Below, in pieces: positions 3,866 through 51,458 of a DNA stretch of 64,000 bases; within the stretch, counting starts at the first letter, position 1, and the number at the start of each line of letters is the position of its first letter. Source of the stretch: an uncultured Verrucomicrobia subdivision 3 bacterium (lineage in GTDB: Bacteria; Verrucomicrobiota; Verrucomicrobiia; Limisphaerales; UBA11358); NCBI GenBank assembly GCA_903827955.1, contig CAIKKJ010000054.1, positions 2,298 to 66,297 on the forward strand. The letters run 5' to 3'. The notes below the pieces were generated by a model. That model did no database searches and was not told the origin of the DNA. It was given only the letters and a program-made list of their open reading frames with translations. The translations under genes and the position numbers were made by a program.

Positions 3866-5080
3866 ATGTCTACAATCAACGATACACTGCCAACTGTCCT
3901 CCTCAAACCGGGTGAAGCCGACCGCATTGTTGCCGGCCATCCATGGGTATATCAGAACGAAATCCTCCGCCTCACCCAAGAAACCGCTGACGGAGATTTG
4001 GTTCAGGTCAAAGACCACCGCCAGCGACTGCTCGGGGTGGGCTACTACAACTCCAAATCTAAAATCGGGATCCGCCTGCTCGCGCCGGATCGTATCCGGC
4101 CCAATGAGGAGTTTTTCGAGGAACGCATCCGCGCCGCACTCGCCGTGCGGAAAAAATTTATGCCGGATGCCACCTCATTCCGCGTGGTCAACGCCGAAAG
4201 CGATTTTTTGAGCGGCCTTATTGTGGACAAATACGAGGACGTCCTCGTCGTGCAAATTTCCGCACTGGGCATGGATCGGCGAAAACAGCATATCGTGGCC
4301 GCGCTGGAAAAAATATTTTCTCCGCGCGCCATCATGGAACGCAGCGATGTCGCCGCGCGCAAGTTTGAAGGATTGGAACCTGCCAATGGCATTCTCTCTG
4401 GTGAATCTGATGGAAAAATTTCCGTTAACCTGAACGGCCTGAAATTTGAAACCGACCTCATTGCCGGCCACAAAACCGGAATGTATCTCGACCAGCAGGC
4501 GAACTACCAAGCTGTCTCCCAATTTGCCAAAGGCGGAAACGTCCTCGACTGCTTTAGTTTTCTTGGCGGGTTTGGCTTGCACGCCGCCCGCGCCGGCGCA
4601 GCACAAGTCCGATTGCTCGACCAGAGCGCGGACGCCATCGCCGCCTCCGAACGGAACGCCAAGACGAACGGCCTTGAAAAAAACTGCGCATTTGAGACGG
4701 TTAATGTTTTTGACTGGCTCAAGTTGAATACTGCCGTGAAGCCACACGAACGCGTCATTCCACGCTTTGATCTCATCATCCTCGACCCGCCGTCTTTCAC
4801 CCGCAACCGCGCTTCGGTGCCTGACGCGCTTCGCGGCTACAAGGAAATTCATCTACGTGCGCTTAAACTTTTGAAGCCCGGCGGCACGCTGGCAACCTTC
4901 TGCTGCTCGCACCACGTCAACACGGAATTATTTCAGGACTCACTGCTCTCGGCAGCATTCGATACGCGCCACGTATTGCGCCGCGTAGCAACTTACGCAC
5001 AAAGTCCTGACCATCCAATCATACCCATGATTCCCGAAACAGAATACCTGAAGGGCTTCGCCTTTGAAAAAGTCCGGTGA
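3866..5080 (+). CDS. rlmI: class I SAM-dependent rRNA (cytosine-C5) methyltransferase, RlmI-like
   Basis: PUA-like N-terminus LLKPGEADRIVAGHPWVYQNEI, SAM-binding core VLDCFSFLGGFG and IILDPPSF. The ORF opens at 3821, but the internal Met at 3866 fits the family N-terminus better. Confidence 0.8.
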   Translation: MSTINDTLPTVLLKPGEADRIVAGHPWVYQNEILRLTQETADGDLVQVKDHRQRLLGVGYYNSKSKIGIRLLAPDRIRPNEEFFEERIRAALAVRKKFMPDATSFRVVNAESDFLSGLIVDKYEDVLVVQISALGMDRRKQHIVAALEKIFSPRAIMERSDVAARKFEGLEPANGILSGESDGKISVNLNGLKFETDLIAGHKTGMYLDQQANYQAVSQFAKGGNVLDCFSFLGGFGLHAARAGAAQVRLLDQSADAIAASERNAKTNGLEKNCAFETVNVFDWLKLNTAVKPHERVIPRFDLIILDPPSFTRNRASVPDALRGYKEIHLRALKLLKPGGTLATFCCSHHVNTELFQDSLLSAAFDTRHVLRRVATYAQSPDHPIIPMIPETEYLKGFAFEKVR

Positions 5081-5162
5081 GTAACCTTGCCTAAACAATC
5101 CGAGAACAACTCTGATTATGATTTCGTGGCTGGGGGCATGTGGGTAATGTGCTAGGGAAAGC

Positions 5163-5440
5163 CCACATGAAAACAGATTAAACCTCACCAAACACAACGT
5201 TACGCAGCCTTTAAGCATTCAGCCGTGGAAGAAGGAATGCTCCGTCTGGAGTATTGCTGCGGAATCGAGCATCAATGAGCAAAGCCTGCATAAATGGAGA
5301 CAACAGTTCAAGGTGTCGCCGCCAGTCAACCGGGTTGCCGGGACGTTGGATCAACTCAAGCGGAGAGCTGCCGATTGCCGCACCGGATGATGCAGCTGCG
5401 GGACATTCTAAAAAAGGTGCAGGTTCAGAACATGGGTGAC
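5163..5440 (+). pseudogene. IS3-family OrfA (HTH) remnant, frameshifted
   Basis: One frame reads ..ECSVWSIAAESSINEQSLHKWRQQFK..LDQLKRRAADCRTG*. A second frame continues MMQLRDILKKV, the pattern of IS3 OrfA (HTH, leucine zipper, ERDILKKA). No OrfB follows. Confidence 0.55.
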
Positions 5441-5535
5441 GGGGATGGTTCAGGATACAAAACACTTAAAGAAGGTAATCCCGAGCGATAGGCTTCGGAA
5501 TGTCTTGGAAAACGAGTGAACCTAATTGAGTTGCA

Positions 5536-5782
5536 ATGAAAGCGCTGCGGACGGAGAGCTTCCGTGCGTTGTGTGCCGAATACGGGCTACAAGTGGCTGG
5601 ATCGGTTGCTGCGCTGGGGCGTGCAAGGTCTGGCGGAGCAATCACGCTGGCCCCACAACCTTCCAGAGCAATTGAACTCGGAGGTGGTCTGCAAGATGGT
5701 GCGGCCAAACAGCTTCACCCGCATTGAGGACCGCGCAAGATTCGGGCATTATATCAGCGTATCCACGGACAGGCTACCTCGG
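5536..5782 (+). pseudogene. IS481-like transposase N-terminal remnant (frameshifts plus TGA in place of Trp)
   Basis: Pieces lie in two frames: SFRALCAEYG / TGYKWLDRLLRWGVQGLAEQSRWPHNLPEQLNSEVVCKMV / KQLHPH*GPRKIRAL. The catalytic core is absent, and the fragment abuts the IS4 fragment. Confidence 0.55.
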
Positions 5783-6570
5783 TTAGCCGATGCGGCGCAT
5801 GAGGACGGGATAATCGTGCTGGGCCTTCAAGCCGGTCATCACGACGGTCTGGTCGAAACGCAATCCGGTGGTTTTGTCAACAGGCCGGGAGTAACGGCGG
5901 GCGCACCGGAAGTTTTGTTTGGCCCGGGTGACGAAGAACGCGCCGCATTGATGCAGCCGATGCCAGCGGGCAAGTCGAGATAGTCGCGGTCCATGATGTA
6001 AAACGAACCGGCTTCCCAGACCAGTTGGTCGAGGATGTTTACGTCATGCACACTGCCGGTGGAGACAATGATGACGGTGGGAAAGTTGCCCTGGAGGGTC
6101 AGCAGGGTGTGGAGTTTTATAGCGGCCTTGTGCCGACGGAAGTTGGCCCACGGAAAGAGCGAGAGGCAGAGGTCTATGGCGGTGGAGTCCAGCGCGTAAG
6201 CCGCCGCTTGGAGTTCAAAGTGAAAGGGTTCATCGGCGTAGAGCGCGGTGGCTTGCCGGATGAGGACGTGGGCGAAATCGGCAAAGATACGCCAGTCCCG
6301 CTTTTCATTGGCCACCGCCAACGTGTTGCGCGCGGTGGGTTGCCGGATGCCGGCGTGATAGAGCTTCGGGCCGAAGGCCGCCAGACAGGTTTCGATGTCG
6401 CGCAAACTTTCGCGCCACGTCAGTTGAGCAAACGCCAGCACGAGGAACTGTTCGTAGGTGGGCAGCTTGCGGACGCGGAAGTTGCCGTGGTAGCGGGCGA
6501 CACACTTGTCGAACTCGTATTTGGGCAGGAAGCTGAGGAGTTGGGCTAAGACGGTGCGACCTTCGTTCAT
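5783..6570 (-). pseudogene. IS4-family DDE transposase, frameshifted near 5975 and 3'-truncated
   Basis: N-terminus MNEGRTVLAQLLSFLPKYEFDKCVARYHGNFRVRKL... After FYIMDRDYLD the homologous reading continues in another frame (LARWHRLHQCGAFFVTRAKQNFRCARRYSRPVDKTTGLRFDQTVVMTGLKAQHDYPVLMRRIG*) and ends well before the expected C-terminal part of the DDE domain. Confidence 0.7.
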
Positions 6571-6889
6571 AAGGTGAAAAACTGCTGAAGTGCGGTGGAA
6601 CACCCTCGGAGAGGCGTCGCAGAGTTGAAATCAAAAAATGACCAGACAGCGGTTTTATCCAGATTTTACAATGGTAAAATCGCTGTCAGAAAAAACTAAA
6701 CGGACAGCATTGGTGTTACCTTTGTTCTGACTGCGCTAAAAACACTCATGCCTTCCACACTCACCTCCTGTCCACCAAATCAAGGCATAAGCATAATCCC
6801 AAAAACAGGCAAAAATAAGTTGTGCCATTTCGTTTTACTGTTATTTTTCCGGTGCTGTATTTTTTTTGTGGTAGTTTTTCATTATAAAT

Positions 6890-6967
6890 CGGGGCGTAGC
6901 GTAGTCTGGCTAGCGCGCTTGTTTCGGGTACAAGAGGTCGTGAGTTCGAATCTCACCGCCCCGACCA
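6890..6967 (+). tRNA. tRNA-Pro (anticodon CGG), CCA encoded
   Basis: Folded by hand. Acceptor CGGGGCG/CGCCCCG, anticodon stem CTTGT/ACAAG with loop TTCGGGT, T-arm GTGAG-TTCGAAT-CTCAC, discriminator A, CCA. Confidence 0.9.
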
Positions 6968-7076
6968 TTTTTAAAGGTTTTTTTGAAGGTTTGACACTTG
7001 AGCACACGGGAAGTCTTGAATAACGAGCCACTAAAGTTTGCGTTTTCGCCCGATGAGGCATTACAGAAATGTGCCT

Positions 7077-7215
7077 TCACCAAACTACCAATGAGCCGTA
7101 AGAAGTCAGTCAAAACCCGACTCAAGTCCCGTTAATCTTTTAGCCGATTCACCAAGCTGCCAACGAGCCGCAAGAAGTCGGTCAAAACTCGCCTAAAGTC
7201 CCGTTAATCTTCTAA
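7077..7215. repeat. tandem duplication, two units of about 71 bp (about 86% identical)
   Basis: Unit 1 is ttcaccaaactaccaatgagccgtaagaagtcagtcaaaacccgactcaagtcccgttaatctttt. Unit 2 is ttcaccaagctgccaacgagccgcaagaagtcggtcaaaactcgcctaaagtcccgttaatcttct. Confidence 0.85.
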
Positions 7216-7432
7216 GCAATTGCAATCAATGCCTTGCAACTATTCAAGTTTGATTTGTGCATAATCCGCAAATTAAGAGTTCACTTTTCCTTGACCGGTA
7301 GATGAAAAGATCTCATAGTCCTCGAATAACCACGAGGGATGACTATTGGTGTATTGTGATGGCTTGATGAACACGACTGAATCAGATGTGTTCATTTCAC
7401 TTTCTCCAACCTCGCAAATCAGGAGCTTAGCT

Positions 7433-47690: not shown

Positions 47691-47738
47691 TCCTAATCTT
47701 AAGCCGGCTCCTCCTCATCCTCGCCTAAGATTAGGCCT
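47691..47738. repeat. degenerate palindrome cctaatctta / taagattagg with internal GCCTAAGATTAGGC
   Basis: 10-bp arms with a 25-nt loop, resembling decayed core/inverse-core motifs. Confidence 0.6.
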
Positions 47739-47818
47739 CAAGACCCCCAACGAAGTCTACTACGAACAACCACCCTTTTGTCGCACTACAAATGTGAAAC
47801 TAAACGGCGTAAATAATC

Positions 47819-48001
47819 TCATGGCCTTTTTTCTAACTGCTCGATGCGACTTTCCAGGGAAGCAACTTTTGCTTCCAACTCTTTCTTGGAGTATTTGCTG
47901 CCGAATAGCTTGGCAATCCAATCCTGAATCCCCGTGATGCTGAGAATAATAAGGCAGATGGTAATCGAAATAGCCCAATCAACAAGTCTGTCTGGTGTCA
48001 T
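47819..48001 (-). CDS. cassette ORF: small single-TM protein with C-terminal coiled coil
   Basis: MTPDRLVDWAISITICLIILSITGIQDWIAKLFGSKYSKKELEAKVASLESRIEQLEKRP. An alternative GTG start lies at 48031. AT-rich codon usage. Confidence 0.5.
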   Translation of the reverse strand: MTPDRLVDWAISITICLIILSITGIQDWIAKLFGSKYSKKELEAKVASLESRIEQLEKRP

Positions 48002-48038
48002 AATGTTTGTGTGTTTTGTTTTTGTTGTCACGCGAGCC

Positions 48039-48182
48039 GCCTAACATCCAAACCTGAGCCACCGCCGAGTCTTAGCAGACTGCCACCCAGCGTGAACCGC
48101 GACAGCGGAACCCGTAGCACGGTGGCAGCCAGCGCCATCGGCTAGGTGGCCGTCCGCAAGGACCTCCAGCGAGTGGTTAGGC
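48039..48182 (-). repeat. attC-like structured repeat, copy A (144 bp)
   Basis: On the minus strand it reads GCCTAAC ... GTTAGGC. It shares a 90-bp core (1 mismatch) with copy B, and the TAA stop of the upstream ORF lies inside GCCTAAC. Confidence 0.55.
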
Positions 48183-48584
48183 CTCTTCGTCTGGGGGAGT
48201 CTTCTTGTTGAGTCGCCGCACTTTGGCGATGCCTTGAATGGCCATCCAGATGCCAATTATACCAACGATTTCTGGAATCGCCAAATAGCTGCCCCCCGCA
48301 CGGGTATAAAACCGAACTGCCCAACCGACAAGGAACAGACCGAGCAAGGCCACTGCAATCCAGGCAATTAACATGCCTCGCTTTATAGAGTCCGGGCGCA
48401 TTTTCGATAGAAAGTGCCAGGGCTGCTTTCGGGTCACATAAACACCTGCCATAACTGAAACTCCAACTACCAAGATCCACCAAGTTTCAAGGACCAATCC
48501 GAAAAAGCACCCAACGACGGCGACAGCAACTACGAACATCCCGTCGAGCGTCATCTTTTTCTCCGGCTGTTTGTTGCCGCGCAT
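48177..48584 (-). CDS. cassette ORF: four-TM membrane protein
   Basis: MRGNKQPEKKMTLDGMFVVAVAVVGCFFGLVLETWWILVVGVSVMAGVYV... The longer track ORF (to 48704) would read through the repeat and was rejected. Confidence 0.6.
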   Translation of the reverse strand: MRGNKQPEKKMTLDGMFVVAVAVVGCFFGLVLETWWILVVGVSVMAGVYVTRKQPWHFLSKMRPDSIKRGMLIAWIAVALLGLFLVGWAVRFYTRAGGSYLAIPEIVGIIGIWMAIQGIAKVRRLNKKTPPDEEA

Positions 48585-48604
48585 TTGGTTTGGTGTGCGA
48601 TGAA

Positions 48605-48733
48605 GCCTAACGACCAAACCTGAGCCACCGCCGAGTCTTAGCAGACTGCCACCCGGCGTGAACCGCGACAGCGGAACCCGTAGCACGGTGGCAGCCAGCG
48701 CCAACGGCGGTTGGCTCCGGCGAATGGTTAGGT
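48605..48733 (-). repeat. attC-like structured repeat, copy B (129 bp)
   Basis: On the minus strand it reads ACCTAAC ... GTTAGGC and starts 4 nt after the stop of the S26-like ORF. Confidence 0.55.
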
Positions 48734-48737
48734 GGCG

Positions 48738-49238
48738 TCATTTGTCTCTCACTCTACCTAAAATGCTCTGCTTCGGCAACGCACCCCAAAAGCGGCTGTC
48801 GAATGAATTCGTGGTATTGTCACCGACTAGGAAATACGTGTCGGCTGCAATTTTATATGGATAAGAAACAACTGGGAAGGGTGAGTGGGGAATACTAGCA
48901 TCGTAGTGAATACCTGCCAACCTGTCGGGCTGTGCTTCGCGTTTTCCATCAATGTAAATACCATCGGCTCGAATCTCCAAACTCTCTCCTGGAAGGCCGA
49001 TAACTCGCATGACCCAAATCTCCTGCGGCTGCGTCAATGTCTCTTTCGGTGGAGGGTGGAACACGACAACATCCCATCGCTGCGGCTCACTCTTACGAAA
49101 CGCAGACATATCGGCGACGACGCTCTCATTCGGCTGGATGGTCGGTGACATGGCTGACGACCCGCTTTGGCGGAAACATCGCTCGGAACATCCGCTGATT
49201 AAAACCAGAAGCGTGAGAATGATGATGGATGTGCGCAT
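48738..49238 (-). CDS. cassette ORF: S26 signal-peptidase-I-like lipoprotein
   Basis: Lipobox LISGC, Ser box GSSAMSPTI, VMRVIGLPGE, and GDNTTNSFDSRFWG. Confidence 0.7.
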   Translation of the reverse strand: MRTSIIILTLLVLISGCSERCFRQSGSSAMSPTIQPNESVVADMSAFRKSEPQRWDVVVFHPPPKETLTQPQEIWVMRVIGLPGESLEIRADGIYIDGKREAQPDRLAGIHYDASIPHSPFPVVSYPYKIAADTYFLVGDNTTNSFDSRFWGALPKQSILGRVRDK

Positions 49239-49242
49239 AGCC

Positions 49243-49357
49243 GCCTAACAGTAATATTAACCCTTAAAAGTGTGGTTTATCACTTTCATTGATTTTGACC
49301 TTAGTTGAGGGTTTTTTCCCTGTCAAGCAAGGGGGTTTGGAAAATCTTCGGGGTGAA
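49243..49357 (-). other. possible attI-like junction (GTTAGGC core 4 nt upstream of the first cassette ATG, plus AT-rich spacer)
   Basis: On the minus strand ...ttaatattactGTTAGGCggctATG. It lacks the 90-bp attC-like core found at the other two junctions. Confidence 0.3.
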
Positions 49358-49514
49358 ATGTCACTGCAGAAAACCGCAGTTGAGGGCTTGGTGCCCAATC
49401 CCAAGTTGCGCTTGCGGGAGCAGGTCAGGAGGTGCGGCGCCGCCGGTTCTTGGGGGCGTGGGCGAACCACCGCCAGCGTGTATCCGTCACGACCAGCGGG
49501 CAGTCATTTAACCC

Positions 49515-49750
49515 TCCCAACCGGCCAAAACAGTCACCGGTAGGGACGCTGCGCGGCGGCGTCCTTCCGCTGGCGCTTCCCTGTTTTAAGCCAGCGGAAT
49601 CCCAAAAACCGCCCGCCAAGAAAAGGAAAGCGCGGGCGGGGACGGCCCAGCGGTCCGTCCCTACCTGCGGCAGGGCGTAAGGTGGATTGGGGCAAACACC
49701 GCAGGTCATTGCCAGCGGGTGGCCTTTTCGCCTTCCCAACCGGCCAAAAC
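49515..49750. repeat. multi-hairpin GC-rich element flanked by 17-bp perfect direct repeats (tcccaaccggccaaaac)
   Basis: The direct repeats lie at 49515-49531 and 49734-49750. The interior holds at least five stems of 6-9 bp, including gtagggacg/cgtccctac. Confidence 0.8.
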
Positions 49751-49766
49751 GGTCAAAACGGGGTTT

Positions 49767-50081
49767 TTTAATCAAAATCGCCGGTTTTAGACTTAAAATC
49801 GTCAAAACATAGTCATGATTGATTAAAACATAGTTATGTTTCGCGGATTTATAGTCTGGAATCGGCGGGGAATAGTCATGTTTTGAGCAAACATAGTGAT
49901 GTTTCGGCCAGCCATAATCATGTTTTGCCGGAACATAATCTGGAATCGGCAAATCCAAGTCATGGATCGGCCGGGGATGACTTGGAATCGTGGCGGGATG
50001 ATTTGGTTTTGGTGAATCATAATCTGGATTTATCGCGGAATAATCTGGTTTGGGAAAAAGAAGATTTTCCGACGACGGGGA
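49767..50081. repeat. degenerate tandem array with strict 21-bp period (12 clear units at 49809-50060, weaker units on both sides)
   Basis: Units start atagtcatg / atagtctggaatcggc / ataatcatgttttgccgg, and so on. The consensus is roughly ATARTCWKGDWTYGGC plus 5 nt. Confidence 0.85.
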
Positions 50082-50237
50082 GGGAAATCTTTTAGACAGA
50101 ATTAACCGGATTCACAGAATTTTAAGGCAGAAAGGCCGGCAGCTTTGGCTGACTACAAGTTATTTTGGGAATGCTTAGCGTGCCGTCACAAGGTTGCGCG
50201 CTTTTATTTTTTTCACGTTTGTTTATCATCCGCGCCG

Positions 50238-51458
50238 ATGTTGGGAACGCTGCGCAAAGCCGAATACGCCGAGCTGATGATTTTATTTTTCATCCAGGCG
50301 GCCGGCATGGCCATCTGGTTCGTGCCGCTCGGCCCGATTCTGGACGCGCACGGGCTGCATGAGATCAAGCCCTACGCCTTTGCCTCGCTGGCGGTGGCGG
50401 CGTTCATTTCCCCGTTGATTTTTGGCGCGATGGCCGACCGGCATGTGCCGCCGGCCAAAGTCTTGCGCTGGCTGGCCGTCGCCTCGGCGGTGCTGATGGC
50501 GGGCATCAGCACGGCGCTGAAATTTGAATTGAACCGCTGGCTGGTGCTAGGCCTCATCCAAATTTTTTATCTCTTTTACTCGCCGATGTTCAGCATCTCC
50601 ACGGCCATCGTGCTGGCGCGGCTGGCGGATGCCAAAAAAGAATACGGCCCCATCCGGTCGCTGGCGACGTTCGGCTGGATGGGCGGCGCGCTGCTGGTCA
50701 GCGCGCTGGCGCTGGATCATTCGGCCTATGCCGGATACCTCGGCGCTGTAGTCTGGCTGTTGGTGGCGGCGTTTACTTATTTTCTGCCCACGCTGGAAAT
50801 GCCGGCGGCGGCGGAAAATCTTTCGTGGCGCGAACGGCTGGGCCTCGATGCGCTCACGCTGTTGAAGAACCGCGAGACGCGCGTGGTGTTTCTGATGACC
50901 ACGCTGTTCAACATCCCGCTCTGCGCCTTTTATCCCTACGCGCCGACGCAGTTGCATGAACTCGGTTACGAGCGCACGAGCGCGTGGATGAGTTTGGCGC
51001 AGACGACGGAGATCATTGCGATGTTCAGCCTGGCGTGGATGCTGCATCACTGGCGATTGAAATGGGTCTTCGCCTGCGGCCTGGGCATCGGCGTGGCGCG
51101 GTTCGCTTTAAGCGCGATGAATGATGAAAGATTTCTGCTGCTGGGCATCGCGCTGCACGGCGCGTCGTTCGTGCTGGTGTTCATCACGGCGCAGATTTAC
51201 CTCGACCAGCAGATTGACCCGGCGTGGCGGGCGCGGGCGCAGGCGCTGCTGACGCTGATGAACGGCGGCTTCGGCAACCTCATCGGCTATCTCGGCACGG
51301 GCTGGTGGTTCGCGGCCTGCACTAAAAGCACCGGCACGCATTGGCCGTGGTTCTGGGGCAGGTTGACGCTGGTGATCATCGGCGTGCTGTTTTATTTTCT
51401 CGCAACGTTCCGCGACCAGAAAATCCAGATGAACAGAAATGGAGTTGCCACCAAATGA
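50238..51458 (+). CDS. MFS transporter (12 TM)
   Basis: Polytopic protein of 406 aa from the internal Met, with an MFS-like duplicated 6-TM organisation. Substrate unknown. Confidence 0.75.
   Translation: MLGTLRKAEYAELMILFFIQAAGMAIWFVPLGPILDAHGLHEIKPYAFASLAVAAFISPLIFGAMADRHVPPAKVLRWLAVASAVLMAGISTALKFELNRWLVLGLIQIFYLFYSPMFSISTAIVLARLADAKKEYGPIRSLATFGWMGGALLVSALALDHSAYAGYLGAVVWLLVAAFTYFLPTLEMPAAAENLSWRERLGLDALTLLKNRETRVVFLMTTLFNIPLCAFYPYAPTQLHELGYERTSAWMSLAQTTEIIAMFSLAWMLHHWRLKWVFACGLGIGVARFALSAMNDERFLLLGIALHGASFVLVFITAQIYLDQQIDPAWRARAQALLTLMNGGFGNLIGYLGTGWWFAACTKSTGTHWPWFWGRLTLVIIGVLFYFLATFRDQKIQMNRNGVATK

What the first reader, a model, noticed from the sequence alone, without database searches (positions are those of the whole stretch)
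49767..50081. Tandem array with a strict 21-bp period (at least 12 units) in a 0.9-kb non-coding gap
Seen:
- From 49809 to 50060 every 21st base restarts a unit: atagtcatgattgattaaaac, atagttatgtttcgcggattt, atagtctggaatcggcgggga, atagtcatgttttgagcaaac, atagtgatgtttcggccagcc, ataatcatgttttgccggaac, ataatctggaatcggcaaatc, caagtcatggatcggccgggg, atgacttggaatcgtggcggg, atgatttggttttggtgaatc, ataatctggatttatcgcgga, ataatctggtttgggaaaaag.
- Weaker units extend the array on both sides.
- Two sub-types (..tcatgtttt.. and ..tctggaatcggc..) are interspersed.
- Several frames on both strands stay open, but none spans the array, so a heptad-repeat protein is unlikely.

Inference: 21 bp is two helical turns, so all units face the same side of the helix. 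That arrangement occurs in iteron or centromere-like (ParR/ParB-type) or cooperative regulator binding arrays. The array lies between the cassette island and the MFS gene.
Basis: partly seen in the sequence, partly recalled or inferred. Interest (0 to 1): 0.7.

Follow-up and report, generated by a model that had tools for sequence, protein, structure and literature searches.

The report
Phase-locked 21-bp DNA site array
A real, non-coding array of 12-14 units spaced exactly two DNA turns apart lies upstream of a transporter gene in a freshwater Verrucomicrobium, and it is one example of a recurring, undescribed 21-bp array architecture in this lineage that most likely serves as a docking track for a DNA-binding protein.

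Summary
Window 49809-50060 holds 12 units in strict 21-bp register, with weaker units at 49767-49808 and 50061-50081. A 14-bp core (ATARTCWKGWWTYG) is conserved, the 7-bp spacer is randomised, and there are no indels.

One detail is wrong: a minus-strand frame is open across the whole array. It has no start codon for 51 codons, no coding signature and no real homologue, so it is not a gene.

The organism is a Limisphaerales bacterium (Verrucomicrobia subdivision 3). The array is 100% identical in five independent assemblies. It is absent upstream of about 40 orthologous MFS genes.

In about 630 kb of related genomes, 21 bp (or 42) is almost the only recurrent tandem period. The arrays have unrelated cores and lie in long intergenic regions. 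Upstream of one conserved FN3 gene in at least 8 loci, two palindromic operators sit exactly 210 or 231 bp apart (230 in one), with phased degenerate half-sites between them. The window array and a variant-strain array show the same pattern of strong dyads at one end decaying to half-sites.

Best reading (about 0.45): a dimeric DNA-binding protein nucleates at a dyad and spreads cooperatively on one helix face. It is iteron- or centromere-like in architecture, but no rep or par genes and no cognate protein were found.

The parts
49809..50060 (+). Core array: 12 units of exactly 21 bp. Core is ATARTCWKGWWTYG (unit positions 1-14), followed by a 7-bp randomised spacer. Units 1-6 are mostly the dyad-symmetric form AAACAT-N4-ATGTTT. 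Units 7-12 are mostly the asymmetric form ATAATCTGGAAT.
49746..49808 (+). Junction 'J': about three weaker 21-bp units with A/T-tracts phased about every 10 bp (AAAACGGGGTTTTTTAATCAAAATCGCCGGTTTTAGACTTAAAATCG). It is the most strongly curved DNA predicted in the whole window. It is partly an inverted copy of array units (42-nt inverted repeat 49779-49820 / 49826-49867, centre 49823). The motif AAAAACCCYGTTTTKGAC is shared with L003 and L033.
50061..50091 (.). Terminal dyad AAGATTTTCC-N11-GGGAAATCTT at the MFS-proximal end of the array. Its centre (50076) is 253 bp, about 12 units, from the left palindrome centre (49823).
49486..49755 (.). 219-bp repeat, 1.2 copies here and 2.2 copies in variant contig L003. 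It contains a REP-like GTAG hairpin (GGTAGGGACG...CGTCCCTACC, arms 49539-49564 / 49640-49665). Spurious ORFs across similar tandem elements exist in other genomes.
50195..50237 (+). Promoter-like block conserved among MFS orthologues (GCGCGCTTTTATTTTT...TATCAT), ending 8 nt before the ATG. This places the array at about -140 to -470 from the MFS start.
50238..51458 (+). MFS nucleoside:H+ symporter-family gene (406 aa).
48738..49238 (-). S26 signal-peptidase-family gene (166 aa). It is preceded by a GTTAGGC core site (49243-49249) and a weak attC-like hairpin (49243-49326), so it is apparently the first of three integron-type cassettes.
48039..48738 (-). Two attC-type sites (48605-48738 and 48039-48182; 104 nt of them are 96% identical) flanking a 135-aa membrane-protein cassette. 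A 60-aa cassette follows at 47819-48001. No integrase gene is present.

Best explanation
The array is a double-stranded-DNA docking track. A dimeric sequence-specific DNA-binding protein nucleates on the dyad-symmetric units at the junction-proximal (left) end. It then extends cooperatively along same-orientation half-site-like units spaced exactly two helical turns apart, so that all protomers sit on one face of the helix. This would build an extended nucleoprotein filament or wrapped complex of about 250-300 bp in the divergent region between the cassette-borne peptidase gene and the MFS gene. Its likely effect is to modulate or insulate the flanking promoters.

Shown: the anatomy (strict phase, conserved core, random spacer, dyad-to-half-site gradient). 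Also shown: the same architecture recurs in the lineage, and in the best-resolved family it runs between two conserved palindromic operators.

Inferred: that a protein binds, that binding is cooperative, and the regulatory consequence. The protein is unidentified.
For: 1. Core identity is 64% against 31% in the spacer (random 28%), with zero indels over 12-14 units. Sequence and phase are therefore retained while the spacers have randomised.

2. Period 21 or 42 accounts for essentially all strong tandem periodicity in about 630 kb of Limisphaerales DNA. The arrays have unrelated cores: window, L003, L008, L014, L029 (two arrays), L033 (two arrays), L055 and L056. The only other periods found were a 33-bp coding repeat and one 7-bp repeat.

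3. The homologous arrays of L029 and L056 are 67% identical. They differ by exactly one 21-bp unit and have no out-of-phase indel, while the flanking spacer DNA has 11- and 50-nt gaps.

4. Upstream of a conserved 207-aa FN3 gene in 8 loci, two palindromes ATGGCAATAA-N5-9-TTATTGCCAT lie 231, 210, 231, 231, 230, 231, 210 and 210 bp apart. The units between them match the operator half-site in one phase only: 4.05 of 10 matches against a background of 2.45 +/- 1.37, n of about 77.

5. The same anchor-then-half-sites layout occurs elsewhere. L003 starts with a perfect 23-bp palindrome, and dyad pairs then fall 11, 7, 4, 3, 3. In the window array the dyad score falls along the array (Spearman rho -0.71, p 0.009).

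6. Consensus units of 5 of 9 arrays are significantly dyad-symmetric.

7. Coding and RNA readings fail.
Against: No candidate binding protein is encoded next to any array. The DNA-binding genes found in the window are an OmpR-type regulator, a LacI-family regulator and an ECF sigma factor, all more than 24 kb away.

The window consensus unit is not itself significantly dyad-symmetric (p 0.13). No conserved bracketing operator of the ATGGCAATAA type is present near the array.

The array is absent upstream of about 40 orthologous MFS genes, so it is dispensable for that gene. Unrelated cores in different arrays would require many different binding specificities.

Between L029 and L056, core positions are no better conserved than spacer positions (67% each). 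Selection per site is therefore weak at best. There are no expression or binding data.
Confidence: 0.45

Rival explanations
1. Selfish or near-neutral minisatellite, possibly carried on a MITE-like or cassette-borne element, comparable to the 'BrickBuilt' MITE of Porphyromonas gingivalis with its 23-nt internal repeats. In this reading it accumulates in permissive intergenic DNA together with REP-like and attC repeats and has no function of its own.
For: Distribution is sporadic: the array is absent from about 40 orthologous MFS loci. It sits among other repeats, namely a 219-bp REP-like unit with copy-number variation and attC cassettes. There are traces of 42/84-bp higher-order structure. 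A variant contig carries a different array at the same junction. An 11-nt perfect inverted repeat (GGAAAATCTTC at 49339-49349, GAAGATTTTCC at 50060-50070; read) and a 21-nt 76% inverted repeat flank the block. The BrickBuilt precedent is PMC4596501.
Against: Spacers are randomised while the core and phase are kept, which is not the pattern of a young or neutral satellite. There is no copy-number variation in five independent assemblies. No second copy of the core occurs in 64 kb of this genome or in the fetched relatives. There is no target-site duplication, and the inverted repeats are within chance expectation. FN3-linked arrays are positionally conserved across at least 8 loci with exact operator spacing.
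Confidence: 0.15
2. Sequence-independent structural DNA. Any unit repeated every 21 bp adds its small bend in phase, giving curved or anisotropically flexible DNA. Such DNA would favour looping, wrapping of RNA polymerase or a topoisomerase, or act as a supercoiling barrier between divergent promoters, with no dedicated binding protein.
For: The period is conserved and the sequence is not. In a wedge-model calculation, the most curved 105-bp stretch of the whole 64-kb window starts at 49778: 153 degrees against a background of 32 +/- 18. Six of 9 arrays are above background (parameters were recalled from memory). The arrays lie in promoter-containing intergenic regions.
Against: Three of 9 arrays are not predicted to be curved, and the right two-thirds of the window array is only mildly curved. 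Curvature alone does not explain a conserved 14-bp core or the similarity of FN3-array units to operator half-sites.
Confidence: 0.12
3. A non-coding RNA with repeated modules, for example a sponge for an RNA-binding protein or a small RNA, transcribed across the array.
For: Both strands fold better than shuffles (z -4.9 and -4.5). The + strand is C-poor (GC skew +0.32). Half of the units carry GGA in the + strand.
Against: There is no Rfam match even at E<=5. The unit hairpin has no covariation support: 60.2% of cells paired against 58.5% in shuffles. No promoter-like site leads into the array and no terminator-like site lies within it or at its ends; the four terminator-like hits in 48600-50500 (3.0 expected) are at 49558-49577, 49633-49649 and about 50385-50402, outside the array. 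No strand skew is shared among arrays.
Confidence: 0.1
4. A decayed or unconventional heptad-repeat protein-coding sequence on the minus strand, with repeats of the form xx[PAS][KI][PH]DY.
For: 21 bp equals 7 codons. One minus frame is open for 228 codons across the array, junction and REP element. The array L033A shows third-position-like variation (xxGTIVF; synonymous fraction 0.55). Real proteins with DY heptads exist (P0003, P0004).
Against: There is no ATG, GTG or TTG in the first 51 codons. The synonymous fraction of 0.28 is no higher than in the other frames. Gene callers left the gap empty in every assembly. There is no hit among 5.8 billion proteins. Against 1.84 billion representatives the only hits are REP-derived spurious ORFs and low-complexity matches, and there is no Pfam hit. 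Arrays L014 and L029b have stops in all six frames.
Confidence: 0.05

Closest known systems
Plasmid iterons (P1 incC/incA, F, R6K, RK2 origins). Comparison from my own knowledge.
   Same: Tandem direct repeats with a conserved core of about 17-19 bp and short variable spacers, at a period of 21-22 bp so that bound proteins lie on one helix face. They are often next to intrinsically curved A/T-tract DNA.
   Different: No Rep initiator gene, no DnaA box, no replicon context and no skew switch. There are 12-14 units, against the usual 3-9. Related arrays in the lineage have unrelated cores.
Partition centromeres made of phased repeats (F sopC 12 x 43 bp; pSK41 parC 20-bp repeats; R1 parC). Comparison from my own knowledge.
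   Same: Many tandem units, each holding a (semi-)palindromic site. They are coated cooperatively by a dimeric adaptor into an extended, often superhelical, nucleoprotein complex.
   Different: No parA, parM or tubZ gene and no adaptor gene nearby. The context is chromosomal and intergenic. The array is dispensable across orthologous loci.
Low-affinity DnaA site arrays of E. coli oriC, anchored by high-affinity boxes. Comparison from my own knowledge.
   Same: Strong anchor sites bracket arrays of weak, same-orientation, strictly spaced sites that are filled cooperatively from the anchors. The logic matches the FN3-gene arrays, and less clearly the window array.
   Different: Different spacing (about 11 bp against 21 bp), a different protein and a different function. 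This site is not an origin.
AraC/XylS-type direct-repeat operators (araI1-I2: 17 + 4 bp; XylS at Pm: 15 + 6 bp). Comparison from my own knowledge.
   Same: Asymmetric cores of about 15 bp repeated head-to-tail at a 21-bp period upstream of a promoter.
   Different: Those have two repeats that overlap the -35 element. Here there are 12-14 repeats ending about 135 bp upstream of the conserved MFS promoter block, and no AraC-family gene was found among the window genes scanned.
BrickBuilt MITE of Porphyromonas gingivalis (PMC4596501)
   Same: An intergenic element made of a leader, a tandem array of about 23-nt units and a tail, close to promoters.
   Different: BrickBuilt units are near-identical and have no spacers, and there are 19 dispersed copies per genome with inverted-repeat ends. 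Here the units are degenerate with a core/spacer structure, there is a single copy in the sequence available, and there are no convincing ends.
REP/BIME clusters of enterobacteria. Comparison from my own knowledge.
   Same: Extragenic tandem arrays of palindromic units. The array lies next to a REP-like GTAG hairpin.
   Different: BIME units are 35-40 bp, alternate in orientation and belong to one dispersed family. Here the units are 21 bp, in direct orientation, and each array has a private core.

Membership tests
Plasmid-type iterons | Tandem direct repeats of about 17-22 bp at a spacing of about two helical turns, with a conserved core and variable spacer | tested here: met
   12-14 units at exactly 21 bp. 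Core identity 64% against spacer 31%.
Plasmid-type iterons | Adjacent gene for a Rep initiator that binds the repeats | tested here: not met
   The neighbours are an S26 peptidase, small membrane proteins, FtsH, an MFS transporter, DUF2314 and an aldo-keto reductase. None of the window genes scanned against Pfam has a Rep family hit.
Plasmid-type iterons | DnaA box or AT-rich unwinding element nearby, within a replicon context | tested here: not met
   No TTATCCACA (<=1 mismatch) in 49239-50237. No GC-skew switch. The window carries chromosomal housekeeping genes. Only phased A-tracts are present in J.
Partition centromere (parC / sopC / parS arrays) | Phased tandem repeats carrying a binding site | tested here: met
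Partition centromere (parC / sopC / parS arrays) | Adjacent NTPase (ParA/ParM/TubZ) and centromere-binding adaptor genes | tested here: not met
   None within +/-10 kb.
Heptad-repeat protein gene | An ORF with a start codon that spans the repeats | tested here: not met
   The frame is open from 50111 to 49425, but the first ATG/GTG/TTG is at codon 51 (49958). No gene was called here in any assembly.
Heptad-repeat protein gene | Coding signature (excess synonymous change) and homologous proteins | tested here: not met
   Synonymous fraction 0.28, the same as non-coding frames. No hit. Only REP-derived or low-complexity hits. No Pfam hit.
Structured ncRNA / protein-sponge RNA (CsrB-like) | Conserved hairpins supported by covariation, its own promoter and terminator, and a family match | tested here: not met
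   No Rfam match. No covariation. No promoter-like site leads into the array and none of the four terminator-like hits lies within or at the ends of it.
REP/BIME | The unit is an imperfect palindrome | tested here: inconclusive
   Consensus dyad score p = 0.13. Units 1-6 are dyad-symmetric and units 7-12 are not.
REP/BIME or MITE (BrickBuilt-like) | Many dispersed copies of the same unit in one genome | tested here: inconclusive
   No other copy in the 64-kb window or in the fetched relatives. The whole genome was not available. Metagenome and viral pattern scans returned only unrelated AT-rich repeats.
MITE (BrickBuilt-like) | Terminal inverted repeats and a target-site duplication | tested here: inconclusive
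   An 11-nt perfect inverted repeat (49339 / 50060, read) and a 21-nt 76% inverted repeat, both within chance expectation. No duplication at their outer edges.
CRISPR array | Repeats of at least about 23 nt separated by unique spacers of at least about 25 nt, usually with cas genes | tested here: not met
   14-bp core and 7-bp spacer. No Cas family among the window genes scanned against Pfam.
Integron cassette array (context, not the 21-bp array itself) | attC sites with RYYYAAC...GTTRRRY cores that fold as imperfect hairpins, each following an ORF | tested here: met
   48605-48738 and 48039-48182 fold at -36.7 and -34.9 kcal/mol as ssDNA. All GTTAGGC sites of the window lie at 48039-49249.
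Integron cassette array (context, not the 21-bp array itself) | An intI integrase gene next to the array | tested here: not met
   None of the window genes scanned against Pfam has an integrase family hit.

The most novel reading that the evidence does not exclude
Limisphaerales (Verrucomicrobia subdivision 3) use a lineage-wide and so far undescribed regulatory architecture. Dimeric regulators nucleate at dyad operators and polymerise over 8-21 half-sites locked to a two-turn (21-bp) register. Operator pairs are held at exact multiples of 21 bp. Each array has its own rapidly evolving specificity. The window array would be one such filament track, insulating or silencing the divergent cassette and MFS promoters.
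Probability: 0.25. Interest if true: 0.75.

Novelty: new variant of a known kind. Interest (0 to 1): 0.55.

Why it matters
Long, phase-locked arrays of binding sites are known mainly from plasmid origins and centromeres. This work points to a chromosomal, promoter-associated version that recurs across an uncultured-dominated freshwater and soil lineage. It keeps an exact 21-bp register while the sequence turns over.

If a protein does coat these arrays, they would be a compact natural system for studying nucleation-and-spread DNA binding, helical-phase constraints and the co-evolution of regulator and site. They would also be a handle on gene regulation in Verrucomicrobia, which is almost unexplored. 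If they are only tolerated satellites, the strict retention of phase over saturating sequence divergence still needs an explanation.

Tried and rejected
1. Coding repeat. An open minus frame was found. It was rejected on the missing start codon, the synonymous/non-synonymous test, the absence of homologues and the absence of Pfam hits.

2. Unit hairpins in RNA or ssDNA. These looked plausible by eye and by single-unit folds, but the covariation test was null.

3. Known RNA families. None at the gathering threshold or at E<=5.

4. Replication origin. No DnaA box in the gap and no skew switch.

5. Conserved MFS regulator site. Rejected, because only the window and L033 among about 42 orthologous loci have an array. 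The conserved MFS promoter block lies 135 bp downstream of the array.

6. Search for strain variants and dispersed copies in metagenomes. The junction pattern gave 0 hits. A degenerate 3-unit pattern and viral scans gave only unrelated AT-rich or coding repeats.

7. Finding the L003 haplotype through its called ORF. No hit.

8. A simple attC-finder script found nothing at its threshold. The attC sites were then shown by core-site clustering and folding.

9. Curvature as the sole explanation. It is supported only for the left part of the window array and for 6 of 9 arrays.

10. FN3-type ATGGCAATAA operators near the window array. None.

11. Literature searches for 21-bp arrays in Verrucomicrobia or bacteria. 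Nothing specific was found.

Full report
**1. Observation**

In-phase but weaker units lie at 49767, 49788 and 50061.

The lag-21, lag-42 and lag-63 autocorrelations of 49767-50081 are 0.49, 0.49 and 0.50, while every other lag is at most 0.33. Over the whole 64-kb window the best-lag value of 315-bp windows is 0.331 +/- 0.018, with a maximum of 0.40 outside this locus. ATARTCWKG occurs 7 times in the array and once elsewhere, against 0.93 expected. Searches with the two full cores find nothing beyond chance outside the array.

Positions 1-14 are conserved (consensus ATARTCWKGWWTYG) and positions 15-21 carry almost no information. Mean pairwise identity is 64% in the core and 31% in the spacer, where random expectation is 28%. 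No indel exists in 12-14 units.

The gap is 999 bp. It runs between the start of an S26 signal-peptidase-family gene (48738-49238, minus strand) and the ATG of an MFS nucleoside:H+ symporter-family gene (50238-51458, plus strand).

**2. Not a gene, not a known RNA**

The open frame reads as heptads xx[PAS][KI][PH]DY. Several lines of evidence argue against a gene:
- Its first ATG, GTG or TTG is at codon 51.
- Its fraction of synonymous single-base differences among units (0.28) is no higher than in the other frames.
- Gene callers left the gap empty in every public assembly.
- It has no Pfam match and no hit among 5.8 billion proteins.
- A full phmmer scan of 1.84 billion representatives returned only two spurious ORFs over REP-like DNA and two low-complexity DY-heptad proteins.

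Rfam gives nothing, even at E<=5. Unit hairpins looked plausible, but 60.2% of cells pair against 58.5% in column-preserving shuffles. No promoter-like site leads into the array, and none of the four terminator-like hits in 48600-50500 lies within it or at its ends.

**3. Organism, strain variation and context**

MFS orthologues place the window in Limisphaerales (Verrucomicrobia subdivision 3), known from freshwater and soil MAGs.

The array with its flanks (541 bp) is 100% identical in five independent assemblies (L001, L002/L059, L005, L060, L061). There is therefore no copy-number variation.

One variant contig (L003) is 99.6% identical next to the peptidase gene. It then carries an extra copy of a 219-bp REP-like repeat and a 93%-identical junction. 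After that comes a completely different 21-bp array (unit ..GCTTTGGGAGTT.., at least 9 units to the contig end). A contig from the same sample (L060) has the window-type array next to the MFS gene. The two arrays are therefore either alleles in co-existing strains or neighbours in one genome. This could not be resolved.

To the left of the gap, the peptidase gene and two small membrane-protein genes are integron-type cassettes. All four GTTAGGC sites of the window lie at 48039-49249. Two sites of about 130-145 nt fold as attC-like hairpins (-36.7 and -34.9 kcal/mol as ssDNA). No integrase is present among the window genes scanned.

A promoter-like block conserved among MFS orthologues (GCGCGCTTTTATTTTT...TATCAT, ending 8 nt before the ATG) lies at 50195-50237. 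This puts the array at about -140 to -470. Only the window and L033, out of about 42 orthologous loci, have an array upstream of the MFS gene.

**4. A class of 21-bp arrays**

I scanned about 630 kb of Limisphaerales DNA for any period from 6 to 45 bp. Strong arrays were found almost only at 21 or 42 bp:
- the window
- L003
- L008 (core TTCAAAGG)
- L014 (at least 21 units over 441 bp, without a phase slip)
- L029 (two arrays)
- L033 (two arrays)
- L055 (core AGAATCGCGATTCT)
- L056

The exceptions were a 33-bp repeat inside a gene and one 7-bp repeat. The cores are unrelated. Five of nine consensus units are significantly dyad-symmetric (p 0.0005-0.02); the window's is not (p 0.13).

L029 and L056 (neighbouring gene 82% identical) carry homologous arrays that are 67% identical. 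These differ by exactly one 21-bp unit and have no other indel, whereas the adjacent spacer DNA has 11- and 50-nt gaps. In that pair the core positions are no better conserved than the spacers. Per-site selection is therefore weak, and the phase is the best-kept feature.

**5. The best-resolved family**

Three arrays (L014, L029, L056) precede orthologues of a 207-aa protein with an FN3 domain. I fetched more homologues. Lag 21 or 42 is again the strongest periodicity of the locus in most of them, and it lies in the 470-940-bp gap upstream of this gene.

In register, the gap shows two palindromes, ATGGCAATAA-N5-9-TTATTGCCAT. Their spacing in eight loci is 231, 210, 231, 231, 230, 231, 210 and 210 bp, which is 10 or 11 units. 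The second palindrome overlaps a TTGAYT -35-like hexamer.

The units between the palindromes resemble the operator half-site in one phase only: 4.05 of 10 matches against 2.45 +/- 1.37 in other phases. This is an anchor-plus-phased-weak-sites layout.

**6. The same layout in L003 and in the window**

L003's array starts at the junction with a perfect 23-bp palindrome (ACTCCCAAAGC-G-GCTTTGGGAGT). The number of dyad pairs then falls 11, 7, 4, 3, 3, while the right half-site persists.

In the window, units 1-6 are largely the dyad AAACAT-N4-ATGTTT (5, 6, 4, 2, 6 and 4 of 7 Watson-Crick pairs). Units 7-12 are asymmetric (2, 2, 0, 0, 4, 0). The trend gives Spearman rho -0.71 with p 0.009, and Mann-Whitney p 0.009.

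The junction units are partly inverted copies of array units (42-nt inverted repeat centred at 49823). A second dyad (AAGATTTTCC-N11-GGGAAATCTT, centre 50076) closes the array about 12 units away.

The junction (49746-49808) has A/T-tracts phased about every 10 bp. In a wedge-model calculation (parameters recalled from memory) it is the most curved DNA in the window: 153 degrees per 105 bp against 32 +/- 18. Six of nine arrays exceed their locus background and three do not.

**7. Interpretation**

The most economical reading is a dsDNA docking track. A dimeric protein nucleates on the dyad units and extends cooperatively along half-site-like units two turns apart on one helix face. Phased curvature may help this.

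The logic resembles iterons, partition centromeres, the anchored low-affinity DnaA arrays of oriC, and AraC/XylS direct repeats. These comparisons rest on my own knowledge.

Membership in the iteron or centromere families fails, because the defining partner genes and replicon context are absent.

The main weaknesses are these:
- No binding protein has been identified.
- The array is dispensable across orthologous loci.
- Every array has a private core.
- There are no expression or binding data.

The rivals are a tolerated minisatellite or MITE (the precedent is BrickBuilt, PMC4596501), purely structural DNA, a modular ncRNA, and a decayed heptad gene. Each is scored in the rivals section.

**8. 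Verdict**

This is a real, statistically strong, non-coding array whose phase is under constraint.

As a single locus it is moderately interesting. The recurring 21-bp architecture in Limisphaerales, with operator pairs at exact multiples of 21 bp, appears to be undescribed: literature searches found nothing. That recurrence is what gives the finding its value.

Noticed in passing
window 47819-49330: Integron-type cassette array without an integrase. GTTAGGC core sites precede the S26 peptidase gene, a 135-aa membrane-protein gene and a 60-aa membrane-protein gene. Two attC-like hairpins (48605-48738 and 48039-48182) share 104 nt at 96% identity. A short palindrome, GCCTAATCTTAGGC, lies at about 47725-47750.
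   Followed up: partly
window 49486-49755; L003 196-720: A 219-bp repeat containing a REP-like GTAG hairpin (GGTAGGGACG...CGTCCCTACC). There are 1.2 copies in the window and 2.2 in the variant contig L003. Spurious ORFs over similar tandem elements (P0001 with 4 copies, P0002) exist in other genomes, so this is a dispersed repeat family.
   Followed up: partly
L003 1-195 (reverse strand): A different 21-bp array (core TTTGGGAGTT, at least 9 units, starting with a perfect 23-bp palindrome) follows the same junction sequence in a variant contig of the same species. It could not be resolved whether it replaces the window array or lies beside it.
   Followed up: partly
L029 9448-9706, L056 8427-8664, L272 2174-2432, L273 2211-2470, L274 2091-2350, L278 2068-2330, L280 2215-2455, L281 2089-2330: Upstream of a conserved 207-aa FN3-domain gene, two ATGGCAATAA...TTATTGCCAT palindromes lie exactly 210 or 231 bp apart (230 in L274), with phased degenerate half-sites between them. 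The genes downstream of the FN3 gene are highly variable defence or mobile genes (methyltransferases, HerA-like ATPase, XRE regulators, SNF2 helicase, DDE transposase).
   Followed up: partly
L033 5178-5690: Two adjacent 21-bp arrays with different cores (GGAACnnTnGTGTTY x10, and GAAGTCATTTG alternating with GAAAGTATTTG x9). They are separated by a palindrome (AAACTTCTTTT-CA-AAAAGAAGTT) and followed by the same AAAAAACCCTGTTTTTGAC junction motif and a GTAG hairpin. All of this lies upstream of the MFS orthologue, but in the opposite orientation to the window.
   Followed up: partly
window 50195-50237 and orthologous loci: The MFS gene has a conserved promoter-like block whose -10-like hexamer (TATCAT / TATCCT) ends only 8 nt before the start codon. 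This suggests a leaderless or near-leaderless mRNA.
   Followed up: no
window 5839-7264: A DDE transposase fragment (5839-6603), tRNA-Pro (6890-6967) and a 72-bp tandem repeat (7076-7211, 1.9 copies) lie together. This may be the edge of an integration site.
   Followed up: no
whole window: DnaA-box-like 9-mers (TTATCCACA, <=1 mismatch) occur 13 times against 6.1 +/- 2.4 expected (0 of 100 shuffles reach 13). Four of them lie in 4222-7264. None is in the array gap.
   Followed up: no
window 48271-48286 vs 49939-49954: A 16-nt stretch of array unit 7 (TCTGGAATCGGCAAAT) matches 15 of 16 bases inside the 135-aa cassette gene. This is probably chance (expectation of about 0.05 by my own rough estimate).
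   Followed up: no
L026 12138-12333: The only strong period that is not 7, 21 or 42 bp in the relatives is a 33-bp repeat. It lies inside an open reading frame, in a Ser/Gly/Ala-rich linker, and is a coding repeat.
   Followed up: partly
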